Below are positions 1 to 30,000 of a stretch of 64,000 nt of DNA, in pieces. Source of the stretch: Pecten maximus (lineage: Eukaryota); contig NC_047016.1 of NCBI RefSeq assembly GCF_902652985.1, forward strand, positions 39,804,001-39,868,000, in the 5' to 3' direction. Position 1 is the stretch's first letter, and each line of letters begins with the position of its first letter. A program made the position numbers.

Positions 1-3000
1 AATAGAGTCCATCAGCGTAGACACATACGTCTCCCTCCGTGCAAGGCTCGACAGCGTCCAATATATCACACCCATTGACGCCCGCCTTTGTGTAATTACC
101 TGTATATATGCATAAAGGAACATATCTTAATGAATTTATTGTTTTATGCTTTGGAGCAAACGTTTTAAAAGTGGTTAAAAGTCAGTCACTTATAGTTTAA
201 GTTTTGTTCTTATCTTTATTTTCCCACATTAATAGCCCTGGTTGCAGGGTAATATATAGAGGTTACACAATGAGTGGTTGTTAGATATGGAATTTATTTC
301 ACACGAGTAAGTTATTTTTTAAAAGTTGCCAAAAACACTCGCTTTGTTGGATATGGAATTTATTTCACACGAGTAAGTTATTTCTGAAAAGTTACAAAAG
401 ACACGAGATTTAGCGAGTGTTTTATGCAACTTTTAAAAAATAACTTACTAGTGTGAAATAAATTCCATATCTAACAATTTCGAGTCGTGTGACCTGTTTC
501 TACCACAATAATATCGGCTTGAATCAAAGGGAAACTTGGCCAAGTATAATTTCGCGTATGCAAATAAAGTGTACCGGTGACGTCATTAGATTATTGATGA
601 CGTCAATAACAATTGCAGCTTGGGTCAAAGTTCACCGTGTTAGCCAATCAAAATGCGTACATAGTTTATACCACGTGTGGTACAAACAGATTGTTAATAA
701 ACAGCTGTAATGATTAACTGATGGTCTGAGAGTTGAATAACACAGGGTATTGTGGTAGAAAAAAAAATTATTAACCCAATGATAGCATATTTCACGAGGG
801 TTTTCGCCGAGGGAAATATGACATAAGAGAATAAAAAGATAAACATTTGTTGCCACATATTTCTTCTTGTCTTTGTCGTTGTATAACGTTATAGGCTATT
901 TGGCTCAACAGTACCTAACGTACCCTATTATATTTCTTTATACAAAATTGTTATTGTTTCTTTATCTGTCGACGTTTTCAATATTTATATCACACTTAGT
1001 TGGAGCATATTGAAATAAATTTACGCTGCACAAACGTTTTTTTAGAAATAATTTATGTAAACAATATATACTAATCAGTAAAATTGTAGTGTTTATAAAA
1101 ATCTATAAACAGAATATCAACAAAATCATCATTATTACTAGATTTTTGTATTTGTTTTACCAATTAGATTTTTACTAAATTGTAATTTATGATTTGATAC
1201 TTACGGTAAACAGAGGTAAGGTCCTGTAATCCGTACACAATTACGGGGATTGTTTGACCTCCCGCGTAAAATGGTTCTCGTTCGAATGTGATGTCCTGAA
1301 TGGCCTTAATCAGACGATTCACCACATCCGAGTTGTTGACCACATATAGTTCATGGTACACTACGAGCGAGCCTGCCCTGTAGCACACAATATACGAATA
1401 ATGTGTAAATCATTTCAAAACTTGCATATATAGGTAGCCTACTATTTGCTTATAATGAATACACTTTCAAGTATGAGTTCAATACCTTCTCAAGTCAGAC
1501 ATGTCATACATAAAAATACAATATAACGCGTAACATTTGCTTTCTTTTAATTCTAGTTACTGGGTGATTCCTAACCAAGAAAGTACAAACATAGCATGAC
1601 ATTCAGCTAACTATTAAAACATAACAATTTTAACTTAAAAATTAAAAAAAAAAAAATAATAATAATAATAATCTTCAAAACTATCGCGATATATATATAT
1701 ATATACAAAAAAAAATTTTTCCCGGCTACCATATGATTATGATTTTTTTTGTCTTATTATAACGACTCTCGTTTAACCAAATCTTTGATTAAATGTATGA
1801 TTTTTCCTTGTATCATGACAAATTCAATAATTCATCTTCTTACTACGAAGAACATTAAATTTAGAGACCACAAATCATTTCTTATCAGCACCGGACTTTG
1901 TTTTATATATTATTGCAAACCACCAGTATATATAATAACGCGAAATAACTGAACGACACAACAAACTGTAATTTATTATAGAAAATGTACATTCCATGTG
2001 GTTTTTGTTTTCAGTATAGTGATACAGAGGAGACTAAGACAGTAAATATTCCAAACATATTTATCAAATCCTACATTGTCAACTCCTTTATGCTATATTT
2101 AACAATTGCTGTATCAGGAAAAGGCGATTTTCACGTGGACGCTACTTCGTTTTAGATGATATTTTAAAATACAAATAACCCGAATCTCATTAATGAATTT
2201 CTTTGATTTAATAATAACAAATTCTAAAAGTTAAAGAGGCTTACCCGCAGACGGACCGGTAAACGGCACATCTCCGATCACTAAATAAACTTTCTATGTG
2301 ACAAAATTAGAGGCTTTCCGACTTTATTTCTTGAAAACAATTACATCATATGTATTTAAAAGACGTTTTAAAACTCAACCTGAGAGGGAAATGTATGGAA
2401 TATAACGGCAAATCTTCTTTGTAAATCGCCGCTGCCTTTGAAGTTATCACTGTGCGGTACTGTGCACGTGCTTGTTTCTTTGATGTGTCAATCAAATTAT
2501 ACTCAACTTTATAGCGGGGACTTATTGCGGGTTGCGATTAAATAAATAATATTTAAAAAATGAGGTTTTAATATCACTTTTCAGCGTTTTATAAGGAAAA
2601 TAAAATGAAAAACTCAACAATTCCAACTATCTGTCATGTGTAAAAAATCTTTTTCTATTAGCGAATTTTTCTGATCTCTCTGCGGGCAAGCCTCTCTAAT
2701 GTATGTTAAAAAAATTAACATTAAGTTAATATATGTAAAACGATACATATATGACGTAACCTACCTAATATCGGTTAGTCTAACACCTTTGAAGTCTACT
2801 AAGGTTCTGTTGTAGGCGTCAGTGAACTGAAATACAAAACGGCAGGAGAAATGTTACTTAACATAAAACACAGATGATTGACATAAGACGTATTAGCTCC
2901 ATGTCATGTACTTCACAAACAAACATCTTGATATAACTAGGTGTGTGTGGTATCTGCATTTTGCACCATTTTAAAAATTTGAGTGAAGTAGTATGCATTT

Positions 3001-27000: not shown

Positions 27001-30000
27001 GATAAAACCCCAAGGAAGCCGCTAGAACGCTAATTAACTTTGGCGTTACGCACGTGCATACTTACAAGAACATTTATATAAACCTATATTATCGGGTACG
27101 TACATTTCTACGGCAGGGGACTAATCAGTTATGCAAATGGAGTGAATGGAAAGCTGTTAGGCTGGACGTTTTGTTTGACCTTATCTCGACGGCAATTGAT
27201 AAACTGGTATCTAAAAATTTATATTATTACCATAAATTATAATATTTGGGACTGAAGCTAATTTTCCTTATGTAATATTCCTGTATGTTAAGTGTATTGC
27301 ACATATATACTAGGCAATTTTTGCATCATCTTAATTTTCATGATATTTGCATTATGGATACTTAAATACGTGAGTCTTGAGCAATTAAGATCATATTCCA
27401 CAAATATATGGAAATATCTATTAAATCATTTTAAGGCCACATATATACAAGGTTGTTTGAAGTAACTTTGGGGGAAAGTTTGTCAACTGGCGGGTCGTTA
27501 CAAAAAGAGACTGACCGTAAAAACAATGTTATGATTAAGAAATAAATCCTCAATTAACTAAGTTGAATGTTTAGAGTTTTGTCAATATCGGGATACAATC
27601 ACATTCGAGCGAGAATTTCATTAATTAATTAAATATTTACACAAATCCCCCCCCCCCCCCCCCCCCCCCCCCCAGATTAACTTGTGAAACTTTAGCTTAT
27701 GTTTTTATATACACATACTGAGAGGCTGTTGTATTCCTGATTCGTAGTAGGCAGAGGCACCGCCGGCGTCAGCAAATCGGACGACTGTTGCACGGACAAT
27801 GACAAATCGCCTTGGTCTTCTCCAAACGCAAAGAATCCTGGAGATGTGGCTGGAATTAATACAAAAATATCTAGCTGTGATATTATAGACTAAAACAACA
27901 CACAATTTTGTCCAAGATGCTAGAAATTACACCTTTTGTAACGACACCTGAATAGTACCCCTCCGTGACTGAGACAGTATAATATCGTCCCTGTGTGACT
28001 GAGACAGTATAATATCGTCCCTGTGTGACTGAGACAGTATAATATCGTCCCTGTGTGACTGAGACAGTAAAATATCGTCCTGTATGACTGAGACAGTATA
28101 ATATCGTGCCCGTGTGACTGAGACAGTATAATATCGTGCCCCGTGTGACTGAGACAGTATAATATCGTCCCCGTGTGACTGAGACAGTATAATATCGTCC
28201 CCGTGTGACTGAGACAGTATAATATCGTCCCTGTGTGACTGAGACTGTAGAACACCCCCCCCCCCCCCCCCCTCGCTTGTAAATGAGACAGTAGAATGTC
28301 CTCCATTTGTAATTGAAACAGTATAATGTTATCCTTTTGTGGTTGAGACAGTCGAATATTGCCCCGCTACGAATAATACAGTAGAATGTCACCCGTTTGT
28401 AATGGTGACAGCCAGGCGTCGCTTCTTTATGAATGAGACTTTGAACAAGGTGATTTTCGTCCATTTCTAGAGTTGACTTGATAGTGAATATTAAAAATTT
28501 ATTTTTCAATGCATTCATTTGGTTTTCACTCTAAATGATGCTTTTCATATTGATCATTCAAAAGCAGTACCTAGAAACTTTGTGAAATACCACTGCTCGA
28601 TCTGACCACCCAATAGTCTTTAACGCTGACAGCACAAGTTAAAAAGCTTTTAAATGAGATTTGAAAAATACGAAATTTCAGTATTGAGAAATCGTTTCTG
28701 AGATATACCTCCATCTCTAAGGAAGTGTCGACATTTCAGTTTGTGCTCTACATGGAGACGTATACCCGGACCCGACCTCTATATAAAGGTCCAGAATTAG
28801 TTAAACAAGTATCTCTCTTTCAATACGTACGCAACGCGTCACGTGTCAAACTATGTCCGTCGTCACGTGTCAAACTATGTCCGTTCTGGATCTCTCCACC
28901 AACCAATCCACGTTATTTTTACAATAGCAGAATTTATCAGAAAATGAGAGAAAAAAAAATACAATTTAGATTACATTCATATATGAAATAATCTCGACGA
29001 AAGACAAAAAACAACAAAATCGACTAACTATCCTCCCTTGTATAATTCAATATTATGCCCATATAAGCAAGAATGTGTAAAAGCAGTAATATTTCCAGAA
29101 ATATCCATCAGAATACGAATATTTGTCAAATATCCCAGAATTACTGGCACGTAGACTGCCAACCCCCTGTGGTCATGCTACATTTGTCAAGCGCACCTTT
29201 GACAGCGCGTGGCCACGATGTGGACGCACGTGAATAATGGAGGAACTATTTTAGATCTGTACATTTTCTGCCACTTATCATTTGAGTGCGAATTTTATTT
29301 TGAGAGGAATTTGGAGGATAGCTGGGAGGTACTGACCATCTTCCCTACTTCATTACGACCTAAGGTAAGTGTGTTGTCCTCCCTACTTCATTACTACCTA
29401 AGGTAAGTGTGTTGTCTTCCCTACTTCATTACGACCTAATGTAAGTGTGTTGTTCAGATCATGCAGTGTATACTACTTTACACGTGTGTTTGCCTGGAAG
29501 GTTGTTGGAGTGCAAGCAAGTGTGACAGTCGCACGAGCTTGTATACATTGTAGGTCAGTGTCGGTGCCCGTCAAAGCACAAGTCAAAATATCGGCACTTC
29601 CTTCAATACGACGACCGTAACAAACTGTAACCACAAGGGAACATCTCGAAAACGATTTCTGAATACTGAGACTTCGTACATATTTTAAAATCTCAATTGG
29701 AAGCTTTTGAACTTGCATTGTCAGCACAAGTTGGCATCCCATCTCCTTTACGCAGCACATGCACAGATTCGATCAGTCCACAAGTGCCTGACTCGTATCA
29801 TATAATAATAACATATAAGAGTACATAAATGGATATGTACTATTATATGTTATTATTATGTAAAACGAGTCCGGCACCTGTGATAGGATCAACACTGACA
29901 ACATCACAGTAGAACAATGTTTTGAAAAGAGCACACATCGCAGAGCTGACCGGTGGTGTACATAGCACAGGGGCCTGATAATTTGAGAGTCTTCTTGTAT

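What the first reader, a model, noticed from the sequence alone, without database searches (positions are those of the whole stretch)
1205..27849. One mucin combining the MUC4-type NIDO-AMOP-VWD (GDPH) module with a SEA (GSLVV) module
Seen: one phase-consistent spliced frame carries GDPH (exon 23191-23436) and, after about 24 EGF-like modules, a SEA domain with RAGSLVV (exon 1205-1377). Known: vertebrate MUC4 has NIDO-AMOP-VWD with GDPH but no SEA, while MUC1/3/12/13/17 self-cleave at SEA G|SVVV-type sites and lack NIDO-AMOP-VWD. Inference: a chimeric mucin with two potential autoproteolysis sites, which could release the glycan brush and the EGF stalk separately. The TM segment is not in the window. 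Related invertebrate mucin-like proteins exist, so how new the architecture is remains untested.
Basis: partly seen in the sequence, partly recalled or inferred. Interest (0 to 1): 0.68.

Follow-up and report, generated by a model that had tools for sequence, protein, structure and literature searches.

The report
MUC4-like mucin carrying a SEA module
A giant cell-surface mucin gene of an unidentified, apparently invertebrate animal joins the MUC4-type module to a probable SEA module, a combination already reported in sea anemones, so it is a further example and not a new kind.

Summary
The sequence-level observation holds. On the minus strand, 36 exons run from 39609 to the window start. All have AG/GT borders and compatible phases, with no stop inside an exon or at a junction. 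Scanned exon by exon, Pfam finds NIDO, VWD (GDPH at 23425-23414), the MUC4-specific C8-3 domain, and EGF families in 18 of 20 EGF exons. That gives 24 EGF modules.

The SEA label is only weakly supported. It spans three exons (3327-3206, 2826-2765, 1377-1205), and none scores in Pfam. Two independent leads point to SEA:
- The only two PDB hits of exon 1 are Mucin-1 SEA chains, at E about 1.
- The three nearest named ESM Atlas clusters of exon 3 are SEA clusters.

AMOP was not confirmed by any tool. A further EGF-like exon follows SEA and runs off the window, so no transmembrane segment is seen.

The architecture is not new. Sea-anemone mucin4-like proteins with a C-terminal SEA are in print (PMC9080433). 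Both self-cleavages are inferred. Verdict: a new member of a known kind, of modest interest.

The parts
49292..50053 (-). Putative first coding exon: ATG at 50053-50051, a signal-peptide-like start (MEKPVRGITIWIIAASLIQ), then the beginning of the 45-bp PTS array.
   Evidence: The signal peptide is judged by eye; no predictor was run.
40384..49912 (-). 45-bp PTS tandem array (unit TTTTDVPTTTSTAGV). It is interrupted by non-repeat sequence at about 46950-48380 and by the N run 40471-40970. As assembled it switches reading frame 21 times.
31672..39609 (-). Large PTS exon (42-bp array) with 2645 whole codons in one open frame. Its donor is in phase 1.
25496..27849 (-). NIDO, three exons: 27849-27719, 26752-26426, 25694-25496.
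   Evidence: Pfam NIDO E=4.7e-9 (profile 6-94) on exon 2 and E=0.02 (profile 102-126) on exon 3; exon 1 gave no hit. Borders.
23992..25087 (-). Cysteine-rich region at the position where MUC4 has AMOP. Two exons: 25087-24813 and 24193-23992.
   Evidence: Position and cysteine content only. Pfam: 0 of 2 exons at E<=1. PDB: 0 hits.
21226..23436 (-). VWD, three exons: 23436-23191, 21991-21857, 21420-21226.
   Evidence: Pfam VWD E=3.3e-7 (profile 4-53) and E=3e-5 (profile 119-156); the middle exon gave no hit.
23414..23425 (-). GDPH motif. The putative Asp-Pro self-cleavage lies between codons 23422-23420 and 23419-23417.
   Evidence: It is the only GDPH in the six-frame translation of the window.
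20660..20905 (-). Mucin-4-like C8-3 domain exon.
   Evidence: Pfam PF23263, E=2.8e-8, 33.3 bits against a cut-off of 25.
19915..20501 (-). Two small exons (20501-20387, 20007-19915) of a beta-rich spacer, possibly Ig-like.
   Evidence: Weak Pfam Big-like hit, E=0.0059, below its cut-off. Borders.
3744..19218 (-). EGF stalk: 20 exons carrying 24 EGF-like modules. Four exons hold a laminin/teneurin-type EGF plus an EGF_CA. All junctions from the donor of exon 19218-19052 onward are phase 1.
   Evidence: 18 of 20 exons hit EGF-type Pfam families. The first two (19218-19052, 18295-18134) gave no hit. Borders.
3206..3327 (-). SEA-like exon 1 (40 codons, phase 1 to 0).
   Evidence: Its only 2 PDB hits at E<=10 are Mucin-1 chains 2acm_A and 6bsb_A, E 0.95 and 0.97. 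No Pfam hit. No usable Atlas hit.
2765..2826 (-). SEA-like exon 2 (20 codons, phase 0 to 2).
   Evidence: Read; borders and phases. No Pfam hit.
1205..1377 (-). SEA-like exon 3 (57 codons, phase 2 to 1). It begins (R)AGSLVV. The putative G|S scissile bond lies between codons 1373-1371 and 1370-1368.
   Evidence: The top three named ESM Atlas clusters are SEA (PF01390), scores 0.85, 0.83, 0.81. No Pfam hit. No SEA hit in the PDB.
1..99 (-). Start of an EGF-like exon after SEA (phase-1 acceptor). It runs off the window.
   Evidence: Cysteine spacing only; no Pfam hit.

Best explanation
This is one very large gene on the minus strand for a MUC4-like cell-surface mucin of a non-human, probably invertebrate animal. 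From the N-terminus the order is:
- a signal-peptide-like start;
- several thousand residues of Thr/Ser/Pro repeats, the O-glycan brush;
- NIDO, then a cysteine-rich region where AMOP would sit;
- VWD with GDPH, then the MUC4-type C8-3 domain;
- a short Ig-like spacer;
- a stalk of 24 EGF modules, mostly calcium-binding;
- a probable SEA module next to one more EGF-like module;
- presumably a transmembrane segment beyond the window.

Shown here: the exon chain, its phases, and the NIDO, VWD, C8-3 and EGF identities.

Inferred:
- The protein self-cleaves at Asp-Pro in GDPH, as is proposed for MUC4.
- It also self-cleaves at Gly-Ser in GSLVV, as MUC1 does at GSVVV.
- This would give three fragments held together without covalent bonds inside the VWD and SEA folds.
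- The SEA joint near the membrane would act as the mechanical break point.

The gene belongs to the kind already described as 'mucin4-like with C-terminal SEA' in sea anemones.
For: - Exon chain: all 36 acceptors are AG, all 35 donors in the window are GT, phases match, there are 0 stops in exons and none at the 29 split junction codons, and introns are 137-3822 bases.
- Pfam above the curated cut-off on single exons: NIDO 37.0 bits, VWD 31.2 and 24.8 bits, C8-3_MUC4 33.3 bits.
- EGF-type families in 18 of 20 EGF exons.
- GDPH occurs once in the window, inside the VWD match.
- SEA lead 1: for exon 1, both of the only 2 hits among 177,635 distinct PDB sequences are Mucin-1 chains, aligned over 30-32 residues.
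- SEA lead 2: for exon 3, the three nearest named Atlas clusters all carry PF01390, and 8 of the ten best hits that have a family share it.
- Register: both Mucin-1 chains end 22 residues after the aligned stretch (lengths and coordinates). In the window model the Gly of GSLVV lies 24 residues after it. That these chains end at the cleavage glycine is recalled, not shown by a call.
- The intron before SEA exon 1 is 416 bases, and that exon starts in phase 1 like the 18 EGF exons before it.
- Literature: SEA autoproteolysis at GSVVV with a non-covalent heterodimer (PMC9564314 passages; PMC9578598 passages). GDPH cleavage of MUC4 within VWD, called putative there (PMC8660890 passages). Mucin4-like plus SEA in four sea anemone species (PMC9080433 passages).
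Against: - No Pfam SEA hit on any of the 3 SEA-like exons at E<=10, nor on their ORFs.
- Exon 3 has no SEA hit in the PDB; its 2 hits are unrelated.
- Exon 1 has no usable Atlas hit.
- The Atlas scores for exon 3 are below 0.9 and share only 122 of 256 features, which the tool itself rates as a lead only.
- The PDB E-values are about 1.
- AMOP was not detected by any tool.
- There is no transcript evidence.
- The transmembrane segment and tail are outside the window.
- Leu at the second position after Gly (GSLVV) was not found in print as a cleaved SEA site: 13 papers hold the string, and none of the 10 listed concerns SEA.
- Upstream, the 45-bp PTS array is not in one frame as assembled, and its link to the 42-bp array is unresolved.
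Confidence: 0.7

Rival explanations
1. The module is a true SEA domain but does not cleave itself. It would serve as a folded spacer next to the membrane, so only GDPH, if anything, splits the protein.
For: - The only cleaved motif I saw in print is GSVVV.
- The search for GSLVV gave nothing on SEA: 13 papers, 10 listed, none about SEA.
- PMC4456727 passages report that sites predicted by analogy in MUC16 SEA domains are not where MUC16 is cut. Motif likeness is therefore a poor predictor.
Against: - Both the Gly and the nucleophile Ser are present, followed by three hydrophobic beta-branched or aliphatic residues.
- The distance from the helix-1 match is within 2 residues of that in Mucin-1.
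Confidence: 0.3
2. The three exons are coding but do not form a SEA domain. The GSLVV string and the weak likenesses would then be chance.
For: - Pfam: 0 of 3 exons.
- PDB, exon 3: unrelated hits only.
- Atlas, exon 1: nothing usable.
- GS[VIL]VV appears at least once in 28 of 200 shuffles, and a second time in a satellite frame at 30318.
- The single-sequence AlphaFold2 model of exon 3 was too poor to use, pLDDT 54.6.
Against: - Two different methods on two different exons both point to the same rare family.
- The motif sits at the expected distance and at the start of the expected half.
- The module lies between EGF-like modules next to the gene's 3' end, where SEA-type membrane mucins carry SEA (PMC9080433 introduction).
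Confidence: 0.12
3. There are two genes or transcripts. A NIDO-VWD-EGF gene would end before 3327, and a separate SEA-EGF-TM gene would start there. The single frame would then be an accident of phase-1 exons.
For: - There are no transcript data.
- Phase-1 to phase-1 exons can be chained across neighbouring genes of this type.
- If the donor at 3744 is skipped, the frame stops about 40 codons later.
Against: - Only 416 bases separate the last EGF exon from SEA exon 1.
- SEA exon 1 has a strong acceptor, a 14-base pyrimidine-rich tract then CAG. It starts mid-codon and has no upstream in-frame ATG within its ORF.
- The EGF array has no other terminal exon, stop or membrane anchor in the window.
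Confidence: 0.1
4. The locus is a decaying or mis-assembled copy and makes no such protein.
For: - The 45-bp PTS array changes frame 21 times.
- An N run lies inside it.
- In the PTS frame a TAA lies at 40339-40337, at the array's end.
Against: - Downstream of 39609 all 36 exons are intact, with 0 stops.
- 17 of the 19 odd-length repeat copies differ at one and the same site. That site is where the two common 45-bp variants differ, which looks like a consensus artefact and not decay.
Confidence: 0.07

Closest known systems
Sea-anemone mucin4-like proteins with an additional C-terminal SEA domain (Actinia tenebrosa, also reported for Nemanthus annamensis, Calliactis polypus and Anthopleura elegantissima; PMC9080433, passages seen)
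   Same: NIDO-AMOP-VWD core, PTS-rich low-complexity regions, and a single SEA near the C-terminus before the membrane anchor.
   Different: - No sequence comparison was possible because the protein databases were closed.
- The passages I saw do not mention a long EGF array.
- The paper's Figure 3 and Tables S4-S8 were not visible.
- The organism of the window is unknown, so it may or may not be a cnidarian.
Vertebrate MUC4 (PMC8660890, passages)
   Same: PTS repeats, NIDO, VWD with GDPH, the C8-3_MUC4 domain, and EGF modules after VWD.
   Different: - 24 EGF modules here against three in human MUC4-beta.
- A probable SEA module is present here.
- A small Ig-like spacer is present here.
- AMOP was not confirmed here.
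SEA-type membrane mucins MUC1, MUC3, MUC12, MUC13, MUC17 (PMC9080433 introduction; PMC9564314; PMC9578598)
   Same: SEA close to the membrane, with Gly-Ser followed by hydrophobic residues, and EGF-like modules beside it.
   Different: - They lack NIDO, AMOP and VWD.
- The motif here is GSLVV, not GSVVV.
[quoted passage not shown]
Coral mucin4-like skeletal matrix proteins (Acropora; PMC4890752, passages)
   Same: [quoted passage not shown]
   Different: - The coral proteins carry extra TSP1 domains at the N-terminus.
- No SEA is mentioned in the passages seen.

Membership tests
MUC4-type module | NIDO domain | tested here: met
   Pfam PF06119, E=4.7e-9, 37.0 bits (cut-off 25) on exon 26752-26426. 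A continuation at E=0.02 on exon 25694-25496.
MUC4-type module | AMOP domain | tested here: inconclusive
   0 of 2 exons hit Pfam at E<=1. The 202-aa ORF gave 0 hits at E<=0.01. The PDB gave 0 hits. Only the position and the ten cysteines fit, and the AMOP pattern is recalled.
MUC4-type module | VWD domain containing GDPH | tested here: met
   VWD E=3.3e-7 (profile 4-53) and 3e-5 (profile 119-156). GDPH at 23425-23414 lies inside the first match.
MUC4-type module | Mucin-4-like C8-3 domain after VWD | tested here: met
   PF23263, E=2.8e-8, 33.3 bits (cut-off 25).
MUC4-type module | Self-cleavage at GDPH into alpha and beta subunits | not testable with these tools
   The motif is present. Cleavage is called putative even for human MUC4.
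Mucin | Long Pro/Thr/Ser tandem-repeat domain in the same gene | tested here: met
   2645-codon open PTS exon 39609-31672, whose phase-1 donor fits the NIDO acceptor at 27849. The upstream 45-bp array is not in one frame as assembled.
SEA-type membrane mucin | SEA domain recognised by a family model | tested here: inconclusive
   Scanned exon by exon only. Pfam: 0 of 3. Leads: the 2 of 2 PDB hits of exon 1 are Mucin-1 chains at E about 1, and the top 3 named Atlas clusters of exon 3 are SEA at 0.81-0.85. The joined product was not searched.
SEA-type membrane mucin | Gly-Ser self-cleavage motif of the GSVVV type | tested here: inconclusive
   GSLVV at 1373-1359. Gly and Ser are present. Leu in the third place was not found in print for SEA.
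SEA-type membrane mucin | Transmembrane segment and cytoplasmic tail after SEA | not testable with these tools
   The window ends at position 1 inside the EGF-like exon that follows SEA.
Cnidarian mucin4-like with C-terminal SEA | NIDO-AMOP-VWD and SEA in one protein | tested here: inconclusive
   One phase-consistent gene model. The SEA and AMOP labels are not confirmed by a family model, and there are no transcript data.

The most novel reading that the evidence does not exclude
The window may come from an animal outside the sea anemones, perhaps a bilaterian. Its gene would then be a surviving form of the common ancestor of MUC4 and the SEA-type membrane mucins: a single mucin that cuts itself twice, at GDPH and at G|SLVV. 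The glycan brush, a rigid calcium-binding stalk of 24 EGF modules about 1,400 residues long, and the membrane stub would be three separately releasable parts.
Probability: 0.3. Interest if true: 0.55.

Novelty: new member of a known kind. Interest (0 to 1): 0.35.

Why it matters
Vertebrate membrane mucins fall into two groups that share nothing but the glycan brush. MUC4 has NIDO-AMOP-VWD, and the others have SEA.

A gene that carries both modules supports the idea, quoted in PMC9080433, that MUC4 lost a SEA domain. It also runs against the statement in PMC9578598 that SEA-type membrane mucins arose in vertebrates.

This locus gives a complete exon map of such a gene. It also offers a natural test case for two different self-cleaving joints working in one protein. 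Because the combination is already in print for sea anemones, the value lies in adding an example, not in a new principle.

Tried and rejected
- Pfam on the three SEA-like exons at E<=10, and on the partial last exon: 0 families.
- PDB sequence search with SEA exon 3: two unrelated hits, a phage adapter and a vicilin, at E 1 and 1.7.
- ESM Atlas with SEA exon 1: no usable hit. A first try failed because the machine was busy.
- AlphaFold2 on SEA exon 3 alone: mean pLDDT 54.6, pTM 0.28. This is too poor to use, so no fold search was run.
- Complex prediction with the three SEA-like exon products as three separate chains: no verdict, score 0.02 against a mark of 0.34, controls not run. This is no evidence either way.
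- AMOP by Pfam and by the PDB: nothing.
- Rfam at gathering thresholds and ARAGORN on the whole window: 0 matches each.
- Literature search for the string GSLVV: 13 papers, and none of the 10 listed concerns SEA.
- Papers PMC2373471 and PMC5326570 are not held.
- Recent triplication of a five-exon EGF cassette: rejected at the sequence level. Same-position exons average 41% identity (12 pairs) against 38.5% for different positions (54 pairs). Only the order of module types repeats.
- Organism: no tool here could name it. The prokaryote collection was not used because it cannot bear on an animal gene.

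
Full report
**What the window is.** The window has 33-37% G+C over its first 30 kb and one run of N at 40471-40970. The gene in question lies on the minus strand. Nothing suggests a human contig. The best likeness to a human protein is a 30-32 residue match to Mucin-1 at E about 1, and the domain order matches no human gene I know. I treat it as an unidentified, probably invertebrate animal; no tool here could name the organism. 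The N run was left as it is.

**The observation.**
- Exon 23436-23191 encodes ...FLFGDPHFTTLDG.... GDPH occurs once in the six-frame translation of the window, at 23425-23414.
- Exon 1377-1205 begins with the last base of an Arg codon, followed by AGSLVVYHELYVV.... GSLVV is at 1373-1359.
- The SEA-like region is in three exons, not two: 3327-3206 (40 whole codons), 2826-2765 (20 codons, FTDAYNRTLVDFKGVRLTDI) and 1377-1205 (57 codons).

**The exon chain.** I set exon borders from ORFs, AG/GT sites and phases. I then checked them by arithmetic on coordinates, without joining the exons.
- From the large PTS exon (39609-31672) to the window start there are 36 exons.
- All 36 acceptors are AG, and all 35 donors that lie in the window are GT.
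- The partial-codon bases fit at every junction.
- No exon holds a stop, and none of the 29 split junction codons is a stop. The other 6 junctions fall between codons.
- Introns are 137 to 3822 bases long.
- Exons 2-36 sum to 5685 bases, about 1,895 codons. The PTS exon adds 2,645 whole codons.

**Domains, exon by exon.** The joined product was never built or searched.
- I scanned minus-strand stop-to-stop pieces of 30 residues or more. That covered 112 pieces from bases 1-12710 and 150 of the remaining 198.
- The 48 pieces left out were overlapping frames of the tandem arrays at 16.5-17.9 kb and 27.9-31.2 kb, some short frames at 28.9-29.8 kb, and the three PTS frames.
- I then scanned 13 exact exons.

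| Feature | Exon(s) | Result (unless stated) |
|---|---|---|
| NIDO | 26752-26426; 25694-25496 | E=4.7e-9, 37.0 bits (cut-off 25); continuation at E=0.02 |
| VWD | 23436-23191; 21420-21226 | E=3.3e-7, profile 4-53, holds GDPH; E=3e-5, profile 119-156 |
| C8-3_MUC4 | 20905-20660 | E=2.8e-8, 33.3 bits (cut-off 25) |
| Ig-like spacer | 20501-20387 | Big-like, E=0.0059, below cut-off |
| EGF modules | 20 exons, 24 modules | 18 of 20 exons hit EGF_CA, cEGF, FXa_inhibition, EGF_3 or laminin/teneurin-type EGF |
| First two EGF-like exons | 19218-19052; 18295-18134 | No hit |
| AMOP | 25087-24813; 24193-23992 | No Pfam hit at E<=1; no PDB hit |

AMOP rests on position and cysteine content alone.

**Is it SEA?** Against:
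- Pfam gave nothing for any of the three exon pieces at E<=10, or for their ORFs at E<=0.05.
- The PDB search with exon 3 gave two unrelated hits.
- The Atlas gave nothing usable for exon 1.
- The motif GS[VIL]VV alone is within chance: it appears at least once in 28 of 200 shuffles, and there is a second copy in a satellite frame.

For:
- The only two PDB sequences, out of 177,635, that exon 1 matches at E<=10 are Mucin-1 chains 2acm_A and 6bsb_A. The match covers the stretch that holds ...SSSYYQELLTDF....
- The three nearest named Atlas clusters of exon 3 all carry PF01390 SEA (scores 0.85, 0.83, 0.81). Of the ten best hits that have a family, 8 share it. The tool rates scores under 0.9 as leads.
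- Both Mucin-1 chains end 22 residues after the aligned stretch. In the window model the Gly before Ser lies 24 residues after it. That those chains end at the cleavage glycine is recalled, not shown by a call.
- The module sits between EGF-like modules at the 3' end of the gene. That is where the SEA-type membrane mucins have it (PMC9080433 introduction).

I put the SEA identity at about 0.8. By the finding's own refutation test (does the 3327-1205 product score as SEA?) the answer stays open, because the joined product was not searched.

**One gene or two?** The intron before SEA exon 1 is 416 bases. That exon has a pyrimidine-rich acceptor, starts mid-codon in phase 1 like the 18 EGF exons before it, and has no in-frame ATG upstream within its ORF. 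After SEA, a phase-1 donor at 1205 fits the acceptor at 99 of a further EGF-like exon, which runs off the window. No stop, anchor or terminal exon lies within the EGF array. One gene is the simplest reading, but there is no transcript evidence.

**Upstream.**
- An ATG at 50053 opens a signal-peptide-like stretch that runs straight into a 45-bp PTS array.
- That array has 165 copies of the counted word and changes frame 21 times.
- 13 copies of 44 bases and 4 copies of 46 bases differ at one and the same site, the site where the two common 45-base variants differ. This looks like a consensus artefact of assembly.
- The array's link to the 42-bp array is unresolved. There is an N run. In the PTS frame a TAA sits at 40339-40337, right before a possible donor. 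A 30-base PTS-like micro-exon candidate lies at 40135-40106.
- This does not touch the finding's range.

**How it most likely works.**
- Shown: the architecture described above.
- From the literature: SEA in MUC1 cuts itself between Gly and Ser of GSVVV during folding, and the halves stay together without a covalent bond (PMC9564314; PMC9578598). The domain is described as a mechanosensor. MUC4 is putatively cut at GDPH inside VWD into alpha and beta subunits (PMC8660890).
- Inferred for this gene: two cuts would give three fragments.
  - Brush + NIDO + cysteine-rich region.
  - The rest of VWD + C8-3 + spacer + 24 EGF + the first SEA half, about 1,400 residues by the exon lengths.
  - The second SEA half + EGF + anchor.
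- Neither cut is shown. MUC16 is a warning that SEA sites predicted by analogy may not be used (PMC4456727).

**Comparison and novelty.**
- Three searches were aimed at the NIDO-AMOP-VWD plus SEA combination. One search found 14 papers, one search found 2, and one search found 2.
- Only one of these papers describes the combination in one protein. PMC9080433 (passages) reports mucin4-like proteins of Actinia tenebrosa and three other sea anemones with an additional C-terminal SEA. It links this to the proposal that MUC4 lost a SEA domain.
- Its figure and supplementary tables were not visible to me. They may show whether EGF arrays are present there too.
- Coral mucin4-like matrix proteins have NIDO, AMOP, VWD and EGF plus TSP1 (PMC4890752). 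Octocoral and oyster papers mention such domains without SEA.
- The combination is therefore in print. What is particular here is the 24-module EGF stalk, the EGF-SEA-EGF end and the full exon map.

**What stayed unchecked.**
I could not count this architecture in animal proteomes, compare with the sea-anemone sequences or place the organism.
- The joined spliced product was not searched or folded.

Noticed in passing
40384-49912 (minus strand): The 45-bp PTS array has 165 copies of the counted word in 22 frame runs, and only 80 copies are in the Thr-rich frame. 13 copies of 44 bp and 4 of 46 bp differ at one site (GTTACC, GTAACC, GTACC or GTTAACC). This looks like an assembly consensus artefact and not real frameshifts.
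   Followed up: partly
40104-40340 and 40471-40970: The link between the 45-bp and 42-bp PTS arrays is unresolved. In the PTS frame a TAA at 40339-40337 sits directly before a possible GT donor. A 30-base PTS-like micro-exon candidate (phase 1 to 1) lies at 40135-40106. The N run lies inside the array.
   Followed up: partly
10922-11394: A 64-bp tandem repeat (7.4 copies, 89% matches) starts inside EGF exon 11468-11343. It repeats the exon's 3' end together with its splice donor, so several look-alike donors follow the real one.
   Followed up: no
5900-15788: The EGF stalk shows a five-exon pattern three times over: EGF_CA; EGF_CA/cEGF; a cEGF without the calcium-binding start; EGF_CA/cEGF; then a double exon with a laminin/teneurin-type EGF plus an EGF_CA. 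A fourth double exon follows. Sequence identity does not single out same-position exons (41% against 38.5%), so any duplication is old.
   Followed up: yes
16377-18081; 27965-28249; 30063-31256: Satellite arrays lie inside introns of the gene: 47-bp x 36 copies starting about 50 bases after the donor at 18134, 30-bp x 9.5 copies, and 33-bp x 37 copies. All are open in several frames, and one gave a spurious Curlin_rpt Pfam hit.
   Followed up: partly
50101-51555 (plus strand): Remnant of a non-LTR retrotransposon directly upstream of the mucin's putative start. ORFs lie in three consecutive frames, and the last one hits Pfam zf-RVT at E=2.3e-7.
   Followed up: partly
52568-53911; 54056-55155; 56934-59457: Three further tandem arrays (45-bp x 30, 32-bp x 34, 23-bp x 110) fill much of the region upstream of the gene. 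No coding signal was found there.
   Followed up: no
19915-20501 (minus strand): Two small exons between the C8-3 domain and the first EGF encode a beta-rich stretch with a weak Ig-like (Big-like) Pfam hit, E=0.0059. The passages I read on human MUC4-beta do not list such a module.
   Followed up: partly
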